Shown here in pieces: positions 56,225 to 60,260 of a stretch of 64,000 nt of DNA. How positions within the stretch are numbered: the first letter of the stretch is position 1; each line of letters opens with the position of its first letter. Source of the stretch: a bacterium (GTDB taxonomy: Bacteria > Electryoneota > Electryoneia > Electryoneales > Electryoneaceae); assembly GCA_963675295.2 (NCBI GenBank), contig CAXXKJ010000002.1, positions 4,256,001 to 4,320,000 of the forward strand, written 5' to 3'. Below the pieces are notes generated by a model. It did not search any database, was not told where the DNA came from, and saw nothing but the letters and a program-made list of their open reading frames with translations. A program made the position numbers and the translations under genes.

Positions 56225-58246
56225 TTGTTCCGGAGCACGGTGATGGGAGCGGACAAACAGAAAAACTCCCCGGATACTTCCCGGCCATCAACCCCGAGAC
56301 TGACGGATCTCCCGTTACAGGGTGCGGGCTTCGGGCCGGAACTCTCCTCTCGAATCGTCCTCCAGCTGATCGAACAACACGCCCACGATTTCATTGCGTT
56401 TCACGACTCCGATGGCCGCTTTCTCTACGCATCCCCCGCCAGTTTCAAGCAATTGGGATACAAACCTGAGGAACTGATCGGACAGTCTGTGTTCGACATG
56501 TTCCACCCTGAAGATTCACATCTGCTTGAGCAGCAGCAGGAACGTATCCGCCAGGGTGATAGCGAGCCCGTGATCCATCGACTGCAGCAGAAGAACGGTG
56601 ACTATCACTGGTTTGAAACCAGTACCACGCAGATTTCTGGTGATGAATTCCCGTGTACGTGCGTACTCATTGTGTCACGTGAGGTAGATCAGCGTGAGAA
56701 ACTCGCCCGCGCGCTGGAAAAATCTGAGGGCGCATTCCGGGACGCCTTCGCGGCGGCCTCGCACGGCATGGCGATCACCGATATAGGCGGGCGGTTCGTG
56801 CAGGTGAATCAACGCTTGTGCGACATGCTCGGGTATTCGGAAGCCGAATTGCTGCAGATGGACTTCAAGACCATCACCTATGAAGCAGACTTGGAATTTG
56901 ATCTCGAGCGTTTGCGGAAATTGACCTCGGGCGATGTCAAATACTATTCGGCTGAGAAGCGCTATCTCCGCAAGGATGGGTCCCCGCTGCACGTGCTGCT
57001 CAGCGTATCGATGGTCTACGATGAGAACGGCGAACCGAAGCACTACGTTGGCCAGCTGATCGACCTCACCGACCGCAAGCGCTCCGAGCAGGCGATGGTC
57101 GAACAGGGGCGTCTCAAGGCAACCTCGGTGCTCGCCGCCGGTTTCTCGCATGATATCAACAACCTGATGAGCATCATCCTTGGCAACGTTGGCATGTTGC
57201 AGCGTGACGAGGCTGCCGGCACCGACCTCAGCGACCGCTTGTGGACCATCGAACAGTCGGCGAAACGTGTTGCGAAAATCGCGGACGAGTTGATCGCGTT
57301 CGCCCGCATGGGCAACTACAACCCGCGTCCTTTGCAGATAAATTCGCTGCTCGAGGAAACGCTGGTTACCTATCAACGTTCAAAGGATCACCACGCGCAG
57401 CTGAACCAGGTGTTGCGGGCCGCGCCGGACATTGTTATCGCGGACGGATCGCAGATCCAGCAGCTGGTCATCCATTTGATCGAAAACGCCATCGAGGCGA
57501 CAGTTGAGACAAACGGTGATGTGTTCATCAGCACCTCGAACGAGGTCCGGCAGCAACCGTTAAACAATGGATCAAACGGATTCCATTACCAGTCGTATGT
57601 CTCGTTAACCGTGCGCGATGATGGTCATGGGATGGATGCCGGAACGCTGGACCACATCTATGAACCGTTTTTCTCCACCCGTGGGCCGGGTCGCGGCATG
57701 GGCCTGTCCGCCGTGTATGGAATCGTCGAGCAGTATAATGGCATCATCGAAGTTGAGAGTGAACCCGGCGAGGGAACCATCTTCCGTATCCTGCTTCCCG
57801 CCGAGCATATCGAACAGGAGCCCGTACCGGAAGAAGAACTCGACACCCGTGACGCGTCCGGCACGATTCTCGTCGTTGACGATGAAGCGGGCATCCGTGA
57901 GATGTTGACCTCATTGTTTGAACGTGTTGGCTACACCGCTCTCGGTGCGGAAAATGGCAAGGTTGCACTTGATCTGATCGCCAAACGAGACGGCCAGGTC
58001 GATCTCGTGCTACTGGACCTGTTGATGCCCGAGATGGATGGCGCGACCACCTTCGCGCATCTGCACCGGGATTATCCCGACCTGCCGGTCCTGTTGATCA
58101 GCGGATATGATCACGATGAACGCGTCGCGTCCCTGATGAATGATGGCGCGCTTGCGTTTATCCAGAAACCGTTCGAACTCGAGCTGGTGTTGCGTGAAGT
58201 TCGCCGTGCGCTTGAGCTTTCCCGCCAGGAATCCCCGTCATTGTAA
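56225..58246 (+). CDS. Hybrid PAS-PAS histidine kinase with receiver domain
   Basis: Two PAS/PAC domains; GFSHDINN H-box; ENAIEA, DDGHG, EPFFST, GMGLSAVYG; ILVVDDE, DLLMPEMDG, KPF; start may be 56243. Confidence 0.92.
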   Translation: MFRSTVMGADKQKNSPDTSRPSTPRLTDLPLQGAGFGPELSSRIVLQLIEQHAHDFIAFHDSDGRFLYASPASFKQLGYKPEELIGQSVFDMFHPEDSHLLEQQQERIRQGDSEPVIHRLQQKNGDYHWFETSTTQISGDEFPCTCVLIVSREVDQREKLARALEKSEGAFRDAFAAASHGMAITDIGGRFVQVNQRLCDMLGYSEAELLQMDFKTITYEADLEFDLERLRKLTSGDVKYYSAEKRYLRKDGSPLHVLLSVSMVYDENGEPKHYVGQLIDLTDRKRSEQAMVEQGRLKATSVLAAGFSHDINNLMSIILGNVGMLQRDEAAGTDLSDRLWTIEQSAKRVAKIADELIAFARMGNYNPRPLQINSLLEETLVTYQRSKDHHAQLNQVLRAAPDIVIADGSQIQQLVIHLIENAIEATVETNGDVFISTSNEVRQQPLNNGSNGFHYQSYVSLTVRDDGHGMDAGTLDHIYEPFFSTRGPGRGMGLSAVYGIVEQYNGIIEVESEPGEGTIFRILLPAEHIEQEPVPEEELDTRDASGTILVVDDEAGIREMLTSLFERVGYTALGAENGKVALDLIAKRDGQVDLVLLDLLMPEMDGATTFAHLHRDYPDLPVLLISGYDHDERVASLMNDGALAFIQKPFELELVLREVRRALELSRQESPSL

Positions 58247-58450: not shown

Positions 58451-60184
58451 ATGAGAAGATGGATTGCGGTGGCGGCAGTGCTGTTGCTGGCGTTCGCCGT
58501 CCACGCGGAAGTGTATACGTTGAACGCGGATGGGACTGGCGATTACGCCAACATCCAGTCTGCGATCAACGCTAGCGTGAGCGGTGACGTCATTCAGTTA
58601 GAAGATGGAGTCTATACCGGCTCGGGCAATCGCAACATCGACTTTGCCGGTAAAACCATCACCTTGTGCGGCGTGAGTGGAAACGCCGAAGACTGCATCA
58701 TTGACATTCAGGGCGTGCACGGGAACTACGTTTCCGAGCGTGGCCTGATGATCGACTCCGGGGAAGGCCCGGAAACGACGATTCGTGACTTGTCGATCAT
58801 CAACGGAGATGGGGACGGGTCTTGACCGGCTTGTGATGGCGGGGCGGCGCTCTGCTCAAACACATCTCCTCAGTTCATCAACGTTCGTTTCATCAATAAC
58901 TACGCGTCCGGCGGCGGTGCGGTCTATGTGTATGGATCGAACGCTCACCCGACGTTTACCAACTGCGAGTTTTTCGACAATTACGCCAACAATGGCGGCG
59001 CGGTTGAAGTGTATTACGGCAACGCGACATTCGAACATTGCGCGTTTGTCGGCAACTACCTGACCAGCGGTTCTGGTGCGGCGATCTACTCGTACTACGG
59101 TTACGAGCTCAACCTGATGTGCTGCACTTTCGCGATGAACTCCACGTCGGCCGATCCCACGGTCTACTTCTACCAGACCGACGCGGTTATCTCGACCTCG
59201 ATCTTCGCGCAGAACACCTGCACCGCTCCGGTTACGGTCAGCGGCGGCACGCTGGATGTCAGCTACACCGACATCTGCGACAATTCCGGCGGCGACTGGG
59301 TCGGTGCGTTAAGTGCATTTGAAGGCATCAACGGCAACATCTGCGAAGATCCGCTGTTTGAGGATGCCAATAGCGGCAACATGCAGCTGACCGGACCCTC
59401 CCCGTGCATCGACACCGGCGATCCGCAAATGCCGTACGACCCGGACAACACCATCGCGGACATGGGCGCGTACTACTTCGACCATGACCCGCTGCCGGGA
59501 AATATCTGGCTGAGTTCGCAGTACGACCCGTGGTACCTGTTCTCCAACGGTGGCACGGTCACCTTCACCGCGCGCATCCGCAACAACCTCGATGTGCCGG
59601 TGACATTCCAGGGGTGGGTGATGATCACGCTGCCGTCGGGACAGCTCTACGGCCCGACGATGCAGGCCAATGTCAGCATGCAGGCAGCCAGCGAAATGAC
59701 CACCAACACGCTGTCGCAGGTGGTTCCGTCGTACGCGCCGATGGGTGTCTACACCCTGACTGCGCACATCGGCCTCTTCCCAACCACCATCCATTCGGAC
59801 GAGATCCAGTTCGTCAAGATGGGCCTCGCGGCGGATGGTACCGAAGCGCCGGTGGCGTGGGAGAAGCTTGCGTACGGTTGGACGGCGGACGCTCCGGCCA
59901 CAACCCCGGATCTTCCGGACCAGTTCGAGCTTGGCACCGCGTATCCGAACCCGTTCAACGCCACGACGACCGTTTCGCTCAAGCTCCCGGTCAGCCAGCA
60001 GGTGACGGTCACCTTGCTCGACATCACCGGGCGTCAGGTGAAGACGGTCCGTGACGGCGTGCTCTCCGCCGGCAATCACCGCATTGAGGTGGACGCGCAT
60101 GGCCTGTCGACAGGTGTCTACCTGCTTCGTGCGCAGACCGATTTGAACGGCAGCCAGGTACAGAAGCTGGTGCTGGTGAAGTAA
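58451..60184 (+). CDS. Secreted parallel beta-helix T9SS cargo with in-frame TGA at codon 125 (candidate selenocysteine; 577 aa if read through)
   Basis: ORFs 58451-58825 and 58928-60184 share a frame; only TGA 58823-58825 interrupts; read-through gives IINGDGDGS-U-PAC-DGGAALCSNTSPQFINVRFINNYASGGGAVY, continuous beta-helix repeats, ending in AYPNPFNATT CTD. Confidence 0.8.
58826..58865 (+). promoter_or_regulatory. Candidate bacterial SECIS hairpin
   Basis: GCGGGGC(58839-45)-GGC loop-GCTCTGC(58849-55); G-led loop begins 20 nt after the UGA; lower pairing TGTG/CACA possible. Confidence 0.55.
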
Positions 60185-60227: not shown

Positions 60228-60260
60228 AAAAAGCCGCGTCGGCAGTCGACGCGGCTTTTT
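60227..60260. terminator. Bidirectional intrinsic terminator
   Basis: AAAAAAGCCGCGTCG-gcagt-CGACGCGGCTTTTT between convergent genes. Confidence 0.85.

What the first reader, a model, noticed from the sequence alone, without database searches (positions are those of the whole stretch)
58451..60184. Candidate secreted selenoprotein: T9SS beta-helix cargo with in-frame UGA in a UxxC motif and a SECIS-like hairpin
Seen: signal-peptide ORF (58451) and CTD-bearing ORF (to 60184) are one frame broken only by TGA 58823-58825; the intervening 34 codons continue the beta-helix pattern (GGAALC...PQFINVRFINNYASGGGAVY); the downstream part has no signal peptide of its own; context is S-U-P-A-C; a 7-bp stem with a G-led loop starts its loop 20 nt after the UGA. 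TGA is a normal stop in many other genes here, so this is not a code change. Known: bacterial Sec insertion needs UGA plus an immediately downstream SECIS, and UxxC/CxxU are the classic redox motifs; characterised bacterial selenoproteins are mainly oxidoreductases. Inference: a redox-active or selenylsulfide-stapled loop on a surface-exported pectin-lyase-like scaffold, which I do not know as a described selenoprotein family. Alternatively UGA read-through could toggle between a short periplasmic peptide and the full exported protein according to selenium supply.
Basis: partly seen in the sequence, partly recalled or inferred. Interest (0 to 1): 0.9.

Follow-up and report, generated by a model that had tools for sequence, protein, structure and literature searches.

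The report
Secreted beta-helix selenoprotein family
The stop codon inside this gene is almost certainly read as selenocysteine, which reveals a family of surface-exported beta-helix selenoproteins that is missing from current catalogues and has grown to dozens of copies in related uncultured bacteria.

Summary
Window 58451-60184 (+) is one 577-codon frame broken only by TGA 58823-58825, in the context S-U-P-A-C. A 7-bp hairpin follows, and its loop starts 20 nt after the UGA.

The selenocysteine reading is strongly supported:
- The genome has selA, selB, selD (itself with an in-frame TGA) and tRNA-Sec, and TGA is its commonest ordinary stop.
- The TGA sits at the same column in homologues of 36-94% identity from other genomes.
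- The nearest non-TGA homologues, including a paralogue in this genome, carry Cys there (CPxC).
- Both sides of the TGA are under purifying selection.
- The hairpin shows compensatory changes and a codon constraint that is missing where the same amino-acid motif occurs without a TGA.
- Its spacing and apical motif match this genome's own selD SECIS.

A covariance model of TGA plus hairpin found 79 sites in 14 of 41 related genomes, up to 30 in one genome. All 23 strong sites inspected lie in genes with a signal peptide, a beta-helix and a T9SS sorting domain.

No such family is in a 2026 table of 119 prokaryotic selenoprotein families. A 2025 predictor reported no new selenoprotein in an organism whose records hold at least five.

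Selenium incorporation is not shown and the chemistry of the Sec loop is only inferred. The nine genomes with more than one such gene also carry duplicated selA and selB.

The parts
58451..60184 (+). Complete selenoprotein gene: 577 codons plus TAA stop, with one in-frame UGA
   Evidence: The orthologue L015 (94% identity) has the same structure. dN/dS against L015 is 0.039 upstream and 0.116 downstream of the TGA.
58451..58507 (+). Signal-peptide-like N-terminus, residues 1-19, ending AVHA
   Evidence: Read by eye from the translation. No signal-peptide predictor was run. AF2 gives a helix at residues 2-14.
58511..59485 (+). Right-handed beta-helix domain with FxxN / GGA[IV] type coils, about residues 21-345
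   Evidence: AF2 model: mean pLDDT 88.3, with regular short strands from 21 to 313. Foldseek match to the PL6 alginate lyase 7dmk_A: 384 columns, TMq 0.35. Weak Chlam_PMP and beta_helix_1 hits.
58823..58825 (+). UGA read as selenocysteine (residue 125)
   Evidence: Same column is TGA in L015, L016, L017, L018 and L020. It is Cys in L022, L046, P0003, P0004, P0009 and the own paralogue. Sec machinery is present.
58823..58834 (+). U-P-A-C motif (UxxC) in the loop between strands 110-117 and 133-136
   Evidence: Cys-form homologues have CPSC, CPQC, CPEC or CPDC.
58839..58855 (+). SECIS hairpin: 7-bp stem, loop GGC starting 20 nt after the UGA
   Evidence: In the 17-sequence alignment A3, 95.8% of cells pair against 36-60% in the slid controls, and 2 of 7 pairs show changes on both sides. 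Spacing (20 nt) and apical motif GC-GGY-GC match this genome's selD SECIS. No difference from a roughly 92%-identical orthologue contig is listed between 58805 and 58896.
59501..59821 (+). Ig-like / FnIII-like beta-sandwich domain, residues 351-457
   Evidence: AF2 strands 351-457. Foldseek top hits are RbmA FnIII (E 1e-09). Pfam RbmA-like_FnIII E 0.014, below the cut-off.
59942..60175 (+). T9SS type A C-terminal sorting domain, residues 498-575
   Evidence: PF18962 E 6.1e-11; TIGR04183 E 4.2e-11; both above their cut-offs. PorU and SprA are present in the genome.
60228..60260 (+). Terminator-like hairpin plus T-run 44 nt after the stop codon
   Evidence: 15 pairs, 8 of them G-C. This is a consensus match only (2 sites found against 1.8 expected in shuffles).

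Best explanation
Window 58451-60184 is one gene for a selenoprotein.

Decoding (high confidence). The ribosome reaches UGA 58823-58825. The hairpin at 58839-58855 lies inside the coding sequence and recruits SelB carrying Sec-tRNA(Sec), so selenocysteine is inserted as residue 125.

Product. The full-length protein has four parts:
- an N-terminal signal peptide
- a right-handed beta-helix of FxxN/GGA-type coils
- an Ig-like domain
- a T9SS type A sorting domain

It is therefore predicted to cross the inner membrane by the Sec translocon and the outer membrane by the type IX system, and to end up on or off the cell surface.

Position of the Sec. Residue 125 sits in a Gly/Asp-rich loop between two coils, in a U-P-x-C motif. 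The closest relatives have C-P-x-C there.

Family. The gene belongs to a lineage-specific family in which one coil carries [U/C] a few residues before the coil consensus G-G-G-I-x-C. The codons of that consensus form the SECIS stem.

Function (inference, about 35-40%). The selenol, with the neighbouring Cys, forms an exposed reactive selenylsulfide or chalcophile-metal-binding site that works outside the cell.
For: Sec machinery
- tRNA-SeC is at C2:2658429-2658521.
- selA scores 524.7 bits and selB 324.4 bits.
- selD scores 370.1 bits and has its own in-frame TGA.
- 38 of 41 related genomes have selA above the cut-off.

Conserved TGA
- 19 of the 150 listed tblastn matches in 41 genomes contain exactly one TGA, and all 19 were inspected.
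- In 18 of them the TGA lies in the coil motif and is followed by the hairpin.
- In 1 (L040) it lies in the Ig-like domain without a hairpin.

Sec/Cys pairs
- The column reads UPAC, UPAC, UPGC, UPDC and C-U-GQG in the TGA forms.
- It reads CPSC, CPQC, CPEC and CPDC in the Cys forms, and CPEC in the own paralogue at C2:298691.
- A tree needs at least 2 Sec/Cys changes. The window's Sec clade (97/98 support) is sister to a Cys clade.

Selection
- dN/dS is 0.039 upstream (20 synonymous, 3 non-synonymous changes) and 0.116 downstream (88 and 40).
- Codons 126-159 show only 1 synonymous change.

RNA element, not a by-product of the protein motif
- The motif [GCSAN][GSA]G[IVLFAM]xC following U forms the full 5-bp stem in 12 of 12 cases, mean MFE -10.4.
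- The same motif elsewhere in the same proteins does so in 4 of 27 cases, mean MFE -3.5.
- Pair 27-35 occurs as UA 10, AU 3, CG 2, GU 1. Pair 29-33 occurs as GC 12, CG 3, GU 1.
- 0 of 500 shuffles reach the observed covariation score.

Match to the known SECIS of the same genome
- In selD the UGA is followed by 20 nt, then loop GGU closed by GGC/GCU.
- In this gene the UGA is followed by 20 nt, then loop GGC closed by GGGGC/GCUCU.

Gene-level check
- 23 of 23 model hits with E <= 6.6e-06 in the fetched loci have TGA at the model's codon position.
- Each has 147-287 open codons upstream starting with a signal-peptide-like segment.
- Each has 200-512 open codons downstream; by eye, most of the printed C-termini end like a T9SS sorting domain (G..Y..R....K..L.K), and 3 do not: one is cut by the contig end (L061) and two end otherwise (L059, L066).

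Export
- The sorting domain scores above its cut-offs.
- PorU scores 708.7 bits and SprA 830.1 bits in the genome.

Assemblies
- The TGA is identical in contigs from a second sample and from a second study.
Against: - Nothing shows selenium in the protein: there is no labelling, mass spectrometry or ribosome data.
- The window hairpin's folding energy alone is no better than shuffles.
- The paralogues used for the codon and covariation tests are related to one another, so the counts overstate independence.
- The signal peptide was judged by eye.
- The window protein itself has no Pfam beta-helix or Pmp hit above a cut-off, so its fold rests on the AF2 model.
- Function has the weakest support. 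17 of 52 distinct Sec sites have no Cys between -1 and +4, so a U-x-x-C redox pair cannot be the general mechanism of the family.
- I could not obtain model coordinates to measure the Sec-Cys distance.
Confidence: 0.87

Rival explanations
1. The gene is dead, or the TGA is an assembly error. The TGA would be a recent nonsense mutation or a miscall, and the two ORFs would be remnants.
For: Public annotation treats the downstream part as a separate 418-aa protein (P0002, 91% identity). One relative (L040) does carry a TGA that looks like a genuine lesion.
Against: The TGA is at the same column in homologues of 36-94% identity from 6 genomes. Both halves are under purifying selection. The TGA is identical in contigs of a second sample and a second study. 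Indels in the diverged orthologue come in compensating pairs that keep the frame (table 4).
Confidence: 0.02
2. UGA is mainly a true stop. The gene yields a 124-aa periplasmic fragment, and full-length protein appears only when selenium is plentiful. The Sec codon would then serve chiefly as a selenium-sensing switch and not as a functional residue.
For: Bacterial Sec insertion competes with termination (general knowledge). Tens of paralogues with the same UGA-hairpin cassette would tie a whole surface-protein repertoire to selenium supply.
Against: Cys occupies the same column in the closest non-Sec homologues, in a conserved CPxC context. That points to a functional thiol or selenol and not a mere switch. 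The upstream fragment is an incomplete beta-helix. No expression data exist.
Confidence: 0.06
3. UGA is recoded, but not to Sec. It could be read as Cys through a tRNA-Sec-like tRNA and a SelB paralogue, or as Trp/Gly by near-cognate read-through.
For: Nine related genomes carry a second selA and selB, and seven of those a second tRNA-Sec class.
Against: The window's genome has one tRNA-SeC, one selA, one selB and a Sec-type selD. In the genomes with two sets, selA is duplicated as well, which a Cys-recoding system would not need. Both tRNA classes have anticodon UCA and score 59-70 bits on the tRNA-Sec model.
Confidence: 0.04
4. Rival for the function only. The Sec is a ligand for a soft metal or metalloid (Cu, Zn, Hg, As, Ni) or a polysulfide carrier on the cell surface, and not a catalytic redox pair.
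For: The loop is rich in Asp and Gly (GDGDGS-U-PAC-DGG). Many family members have U with no Cys between -1 and +4 (17 of 52). Several entries in the published table of selenoprotein families are metal-binding or transport proteins.
Against: No metal-binding domain was detected and there are no neighbouring metal-handling genes in the window region read. This is pure inference.
Confidence: 0.3

Closest known systems
Bacterial SelB/SECIS-decoded selenoproteins with a UxxC motif (Sec forms of thioredoxin, glutaredoxin and DsbA-like proteins, as listed in Table 1 of PMC13188914)
   Same: In-frame UGA, a hairpin a few nucleotides downstream inside the coding region, a UxxC motif, Cys-containing homologues at the same column, and repeated Sec/Cys exchange in the tree.
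   Different: There is no thioredoxin fold; the scaffold is a right-handed beta-helix. The protein is exported by T9SS and is not cytoplasmic or periplasmic. The family has expanded to as many as 30 copies per genome. A third of the Sec sites lack a nearby Cys.
Chlamydial polymorphic membrane protein / POMP-repeat beta-helix surface proteins (PF02415, TIGR01376)
   Same: Coils carry FxxN and GGA[ILV]-type motifs, and the proteins form multi-paralogue surface families. Relatives L064 and L016 score 26.2 and 18.8 bits on TIGR01376, cut-off 15.
   Different: The window protein itself is below the Pfam cut-off (14.1 against 20.6 bits). Export uses a T9SS sorting domain, not an autotransporter barrel. 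It carries selenocysteine.
T9SS type A cargo proteins (Por_Secre_tail, TIGR04183 / PF18962)
   Same: The C-terminal sorting domain scores above its cut-offs, and PorU and SprA are present.
   Different: My searches of the held paper library found no T9SS cargo described with selenocysteine.
Extracytoplasmic selenoprotein entries in the 2026 table: TonB-dependent receptor FCYXU type (NF049945), GSU2204 outer-membrane barrel family (NF041027), DUF1573 (PF07610, UGC), UGSC-containing protein (NF041046)
   Same: These are predicted selenoproteins that work beyond the cytoplasm. Some relatives here even carry the letters U-G-S-C.
   Different: None of these models matches. No NCBIfam selenoprotein model hit P0001 or five relatives. 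Fold and export route differ.
SECIS of selD in the same genome and phylum
   Same: 20 nt lie between the UGA and the apical loop, and the apex reads GC-GGY-GC.
   Different: In the expanded subfamily the apex is GG-GAU-CU, built on the codons for G-G-G-I-Y-C, with spacings of 17, 20 or 23 nt.

Membership tests
Bacterial SelB/SECIS-decoded selenoprotein gene | In-frame UGA inside an otherwise open, conserved reading frame | tested here: met
   dN/dS 0.039 upstream and 0.116 downstream.
Bacterial SelB/SECIS-decoded selenoprotein gene | selA, selB, selC (tRNA-Sec) and selD in the same genome | tested here: met
   All protein models score above their curated cut-offs.
Bacterial SelB/SECIS-decoded selenoprotein gene | Stem-loop just 3' of the UGA with a G-containing apical loop.
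   (loop at +20 nt). Covariation and slid controls. Codon-choice control: 12 of 12 against 4 of 27. Match to the selD SECIS.
Bacterial SelB/SECIS-decoded selenoprotein gene | Homologues with Cys aligned to the UGA column | tested here: met
   CPSC, CPQC, CPEC and CPDC forms. Own paralogue CPEC.
Bacterial SelB/SECIS-decoded selenoprotein gene | Selenium shown in the protein (75Se labelling or mass spectrometry) | not testable with these tools
   No RNA holder was listed and no proteomic data are available.
T9SS type A cargo | C-terminal Por_Secre_tail domain above the curated cut-off | tested here: met
   PF18962 42.9 bits against 27; TIGR04183 42.7 against 23.
T9SS type A cargo | N-terminal Sec-type signal peptide | tested here: inconclusive
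   A hydrophobic N-terminus ending AVHA was read by eye. No predictor was available.
T9SS type A cargo | T9SS machinery in the genome | tested here: met
   PorU 708.7 bits (cut-off 420) and SprA 830.1 bits (cut-off 200).
Pmp / POMP-repeat beta-helix proteins (PF02415, TIGR01376) | Repeat model above the cut-off | tested here: inconclusive
   Window protein: PF02415 14.1 bits, below 20.6. Relatives L064 and L016: TIGR01376 26.2 and 18.8 bits, above 15.
Right-handed parallel beta-helix fold | Predicted three-dimensional fold of stacked coils | tested here: met
   AF2 pLDDT 88.3 with regular short strands. Foldseek hit to PL6 alginate lyase 7dmk_A. PF13229 is precomputed on P0002.
Thioredoxin-fold UxxC oxidoreductases | Thioredoxin fold around the UxxC motif | tested here: not met
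   No such domain in Pfam or NCBIfam. The motif lies in a beta-helix loop.
UGSC-containing selenoprotein (NF041046) | Match to the NF041046 model | tested here: not met
   No hit at E <= 0.01 for L054, which carries U-G-S-C, or for four other relatives. No hit for P0001 at E <= 0.1.

The most novel reading that the evidence does not exclude
This gene is the single-copy outlier of a lineage-specific family of T9SS-exported beta-helix selenoproteins.

- The SECIS is written into the coil consensus G-G-G-I-Y-C, so a Sec-bearing loop can sit at different coils.
- The family has multiplied to about 30 genes in one genome. That would make it one of the largest single-family selenoproteomes known and the first use of selenol chemistry on a bacterial surface through T9SS.
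- The expansion goes with a second complete Sec-decoding set: selA, selB and a distinct tRNA-Sec class.
- That second set may be a parallel decoding channel dedicated to, or needed for, this family's SECIS class.
Probability: 0.3. Interest if true: 0.92.

Novelty: new variant of a known kind. Interest (0 to 1): 0.86.

Why it matters
- Catalogue: it would add a family to the prokaryotic selenoproteome that the fullest published table seen here lacks (119 families, May 2026).
- Missed by current tools: a deep-learning predictor lists 4 known and 0 new selenoprotein genes for an organism whose titled records hold at least 5 of these genes.
- Paradigm: nearly all known bacterial selenoproteins are intracellular or periplasmic redox enzymes. 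This one is a repeat-built surface or secreted scaffold sent through the type IX system.
- Annotation: public annotation truncates these genes (P0002). Surface proteomes and selenium demand of these uncultured sediment bacteria are therefore underestimated.
- RNA signals: the overlap of a SECIS with a repeated protein motif is a clean natural case of dual coding. It may explain how the family multiplied.
- Decoding machinery: the co-occurring duplicate selA/selB/tRNA-Sec sets offer a testable case of two Sec-decoding channels in one cell.

Tried and rejected
- Fold energy alone: the window hairpin is no more stable than dinucleotide shuffles, so I did not use this as evidence.
- Co-occurrence of TGA forms with Sec machinery: uninformative, because 38 of 41 related genomes have selA.
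- Fold search: the best PDB hits are to the C-terminal Ig-like region (RbmA, transglutaminase, C5a peptidase). The beta-helix gives only a generic match to a PL6 alginate lyase, so no functional assignment follows.
- Model coordinates are not exposed to scripts, so the Sec125-Cys128/Cys135 distances could not be measured.
- NCBIfam and Pfam: no selenoprotein, oxidoreductase or metal-binding model hit.
- Pattern scan of 185,579 species genomes: 4 of 34 distinct matches were chance hits, in records titled Synechococcus, Nocardia, Kariarchaeota and Limivicinus, with no long frames on both sides.
- L040: its TGA lies in the Ig-like domain without a hairpin. I set it aside as a probable lesion.
- Expression: no RNA holder was listed.
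- Literature: five searches found no paper that links selenocysteine with T9SS cargo, a beta-helix or Pmp-like proteins.
  - PMC13188914: I read section 7, parts 1-2, including Table 1.
  - PMC12013277: I read passages only, including the Table 2 rows.
  - PMC5330540: I read passages only.
  - All other papers: search listing or abstract only.
- Supplements are closed. Those of PMC12013277 may list candidate genes that I could not see.
- Duplicate tRNA-Sec genes and even two complete Sec operons in one bacterium are already reported (PMC5330540, passages). The duplication as such is therefore not new.
Full report
**Observation.** Window 58451-60184 (+) is a single reading frame of 577 codons. 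Its only interruption is TGA at 58823-58825. Under table 11 the region splits into two ORFs:
- a 124-aa ORF with a hydrophobic, signal-peptide-like start
- a 418-aa ORF starting at GTG 58928

The 34 codons between them continue the coil pattern. The read-through product (P0001) carries a T9SS type A sorting domain at residues 498-575, above the curated cut-offs of both Pfam and NCBIfam. The context of the TGA is GDGDGS-U-PAC-DGGAALC. RNAfold places a 7-bp stem at 58839-58845 / 58849-58855, with the loop GGC beginning 20 nt after the UGA. The folding energy alone is not better than shuffles, so the case rests on comparison with homologues.

**Not a code change, not an error.**
- TGA ends 986 of 2102 long stop-to-stop frames in this genome.
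- A contig from a second sample (X4) covers 58751-59029 without a difference.
- A contig from a different study (X5) spans the gene with 141 differences and two compensating indel pairs. None of the listed differences lies between 58805 and 58896.

**Sec machinery.** The genome encodes:
- tRNA-SeC
- selA at 524.7 bits
- selB at 324.4 bits
- selD, which itself has an in-frame TGA

Of 41 related genomes, 38 have selA above the cut-off. Sec decoding is therefore the rule in this lineage.

**Conservation of the TGA and Sec/Cys pairs.**
- A six-frame search of 41 related genomes listed 150 matches, of which 19 contained exactly one TGA. I fetched all 19.
- In 18 the TGA lies in the same kind of coil loop and is followed by a hairpin.
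- In one (L040) it lies in the Ig-like domain without a hairpin and looks like a lesion.
- In the window's own subfamily the column reads U-P-A-C (G000, G001, G002), U-P-G-C (G003), U-P-D-C (G029) and C-U-G-Q-G (G012).
- The nearest homologues without TGA read C-P-S-C, C-P-Q-C, C-P-E-C and C-P-D-C. A paralogue in this same genome reads C-P-E-C.
- A maximum-likelihood tree of 19 N-terminal domains needs at least two Sec/Cys changes. It puts the window's Sec clade (97/98 support) next to a Cys clade.
- Against the 94%-identical orthologue, dN/dS is 0.039 upstream and 0.116 downstream of the TGA. The 34 codons just after the TGA carry a single synonymous change.

**The hairpin is a selected RNA element.** In the more distant paralogues the nucleotides after the TGA are nearly constant. 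They encode the coil consensus G-G-G-I-Y-C and fold as GCGGUGG-GAU-CUACUGC. Because that consensus recurs in other coils, I compared codon choice:
- After a U, the motif forms the full 5-bp register stem in 12 of 12 genes, mean MFE -10.4 kcal/mol.
- In 27 occurrences of the same motif elsewhere in the same proteins it does so in 4 of 27, mean -3.5.
- The regular expression did not catch the window-type members, whose residues differ.

In an alignment of 17 sites (A3) the result is as follows:
- 95.8% of cells pair, against 36-60% when the 3' arm is slid by 1-3 columns.
- Two of the seven pairs change on both sides: UA 10, AU 3, CG 2, GU 1; and GC 12, CG 3, GU 1.
- None of 500 shuffles reaches the observed covariation score.
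- Ser at the second stem codon is AGU in the 3 cases seen (L034, L042, L045).

The window's hairpin shares the register. It also matches the SECIS of this genome's selD in spacing (20 nt) and apex (GC-GGY-GC).

**Size and spread of the family.**
- A covariance model of TGA plus hairpin (R1) found 79 sites at E <= 0.01 in 14 of 41 genomes.
- The counts are one each in G000-G003 and G012, then 30 (G018), 11, 8, 6, 6, 5, 3, 3 and 2 in nine genomes of three taxonomic families.
- None was found in three other families (0 of 4, 0 of 6, 0 of 6).
- In 13 fetched stretches there were 24 matches. The 23 with E <= 6.6e-06 all have TGA at the expected codon.
- Those 23 have 147-287 open codons upstream that begin with a signal-peptide-like segment. 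They have 200-512 open codons downstream; by eye, most of the printed C-termini look like a T9SS sorting domain, while one is cut by the contig end (L061) and two end otherwise (L059, L066).
- The 24th match (E 0.037, partial) has AGC there and is an ordinary coil.
- Seven such genes lie on one 17.6-kb contig (L058).
- A strict DNA pattern scanned over one genome for each of 185,579 species gave 34 distinct matches. Of these, 30 are genes of this kind and 4 are chance hits.
- The true hits are in records titled 'candidate division LCP-89 bacterium', 'uncultured bacterium' or 'bacterium'. NCBI places LCP-89 in the FCB group.
- Among 52 distinct Sec sites, 17 are UxxC, 14 are UxxxC (one more also has C before U), 3 are CU, and 17 have no Cys between -1 and +4.

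**Structure and export.**
- AF2 with a 54-sequence alignment gives mean pLDDT 88.3.
- It shows a beta-helix from about residue 21 to 345, an Ig-like sandwich at 351-457, a low-confidence linker and the sorting domain at 493-575.
- Residue 125 lies in the loop between strands 110-117 and 133-136; pLDDT of that block is 91.
- Foldseek gives only generic matches.
- PorU and SprA are present, and about 49 further frames in the genome match the sorting-domain end of the PorU model.

**Comparison with what is known.**
- Table 1 of a May 2026 review lists 119 prokaryotic selenoprotein families and subfamilies. None is a beta-helix, Pmp-like or T9SS protein (PMC13188914, section 7 read).
- NCBIfam release 20 has no selenoprotein model that hits P0001 or five relatives.
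- Loci whose record titles name that organism (L078, L079 twice, L085, L086) hold five of these genes.
- Public annotation of a close relative names only the downstream ORF (P0002).
- The decoding mechanism is the ordinary bacterial one. The new points are the protein family, its location, its copy number and the SECIS built on a repeat consensus.

**Mechanism.**
- Shown or strongly supported: UGA 125 is recoded with the help of the downstream hairpin, and the product is a full-length protein aimed at T9SS.
- Inferred: the selenol sits in an exposed loop and, with Cys128 in this subfamily, forms a reactive selenylsulfide or metal-binding site outside the cell.
- The third of the family without a nearby Cys argues that the common denominator is the exposed selenol itself and not a UxxC redox pair.

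**A lead beyond the finding.**
- The nine genomes with two or more R1 hits are exactly the nine with two full-length selA genes and two full-length selB genes: 9 of 9, against 0 of 32 others.
- Seven of the nine also show two tRNA-Sec genes scoring 59-70 bits. The two that do not are 77-79% complete.
- The two tRNA-Sec classes differ in the D and T arms, and both have anticodon UCA. The window genome's single tRNA-Sec belongs to the second class.
- In G019, G029 and G036 the first-class tRNA-Sec lies next to selD.
- These nine genomes belong to three families that may form one clade, so this may be a single evolutionary event.
- Double Sec operons have been reported before (PMC5330540, passages).
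- Whether one set serves the expanded family is open.

Noticed in passing
Genomes G018, G019, G023, G024, G028, G029, G033, G036, G039 (not the window): All nine genomes with two or more Sec beta-helix genes have two full-length selA and two full-length selB genes. Seven of them also have two tRNA-Sec genes of distinct classes, both with anticodon UCA. The other 32 genomes searched have at most one full-length selA and one selB above the cut-off. Two of them (G020, G027) show a weak second tRNA-Sec hit at about 49 bits.
   Followed up: partly
G000:C2:4439111-4439194 (outside the window): ARAGORN reports a tRNA of unassigned identity with a four-base anticodon 'tttc'. It could be a frameshift-type tRNA or an artefact.
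   Followed up: no
G000:C2:298691-299740 (outside the window): This is a Cys-form paralogue of the window gene in the same genome: 43% identity over residues 4-345, with CPEC at the Sec column.
   Followed up: partly
L040 (G018:C18:40600-43000), TGA at residue 416 of the frame: A family member has a TGA in the Ig-like domain, aligned to Tyr/Phe in its relatives and followed by no hairpin. It is probably a pseudogene or an assembly error, and it served as a negative control.
   Followed up: partly
L058 (G018:C73:1-17582); L055 (G019:C14:111500-124000): Sec beta-helix genes lie in arrays: seven on one 17.6-kb contig, on both strands, and three within 12.5 kb on another.
   Followed up: partly
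G018:C91:701-1627 (L067): A second selD-like match has no TGA and sits inside a 740-aa open frame. It may be a fused, non-Sec SelD paralogue.
   Followed up: no
window 59141/59144 and 59558/59563: In the roughly 92%-identical orthologue contig of run X5, two one-base deletions are each paired with a one-base insertion 3-5 nt away, so the frame is kept (table 4).
   Followed up: no
window 56225-58246 (+): The upstream neighbour is a 673-aa frame that, by eye, looks like a PAS / histidine-kinase / receiver hybrid. I did not test it against any family library.
   Followed up: no
window 59901-60016: Contig depth rises about 10- to 20-fold over the start of the sorting domain in all four runs, with many loose ends. 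This fits the many paralogous sorting domains in the community and is not a feature of this gene.
   Followed up: no
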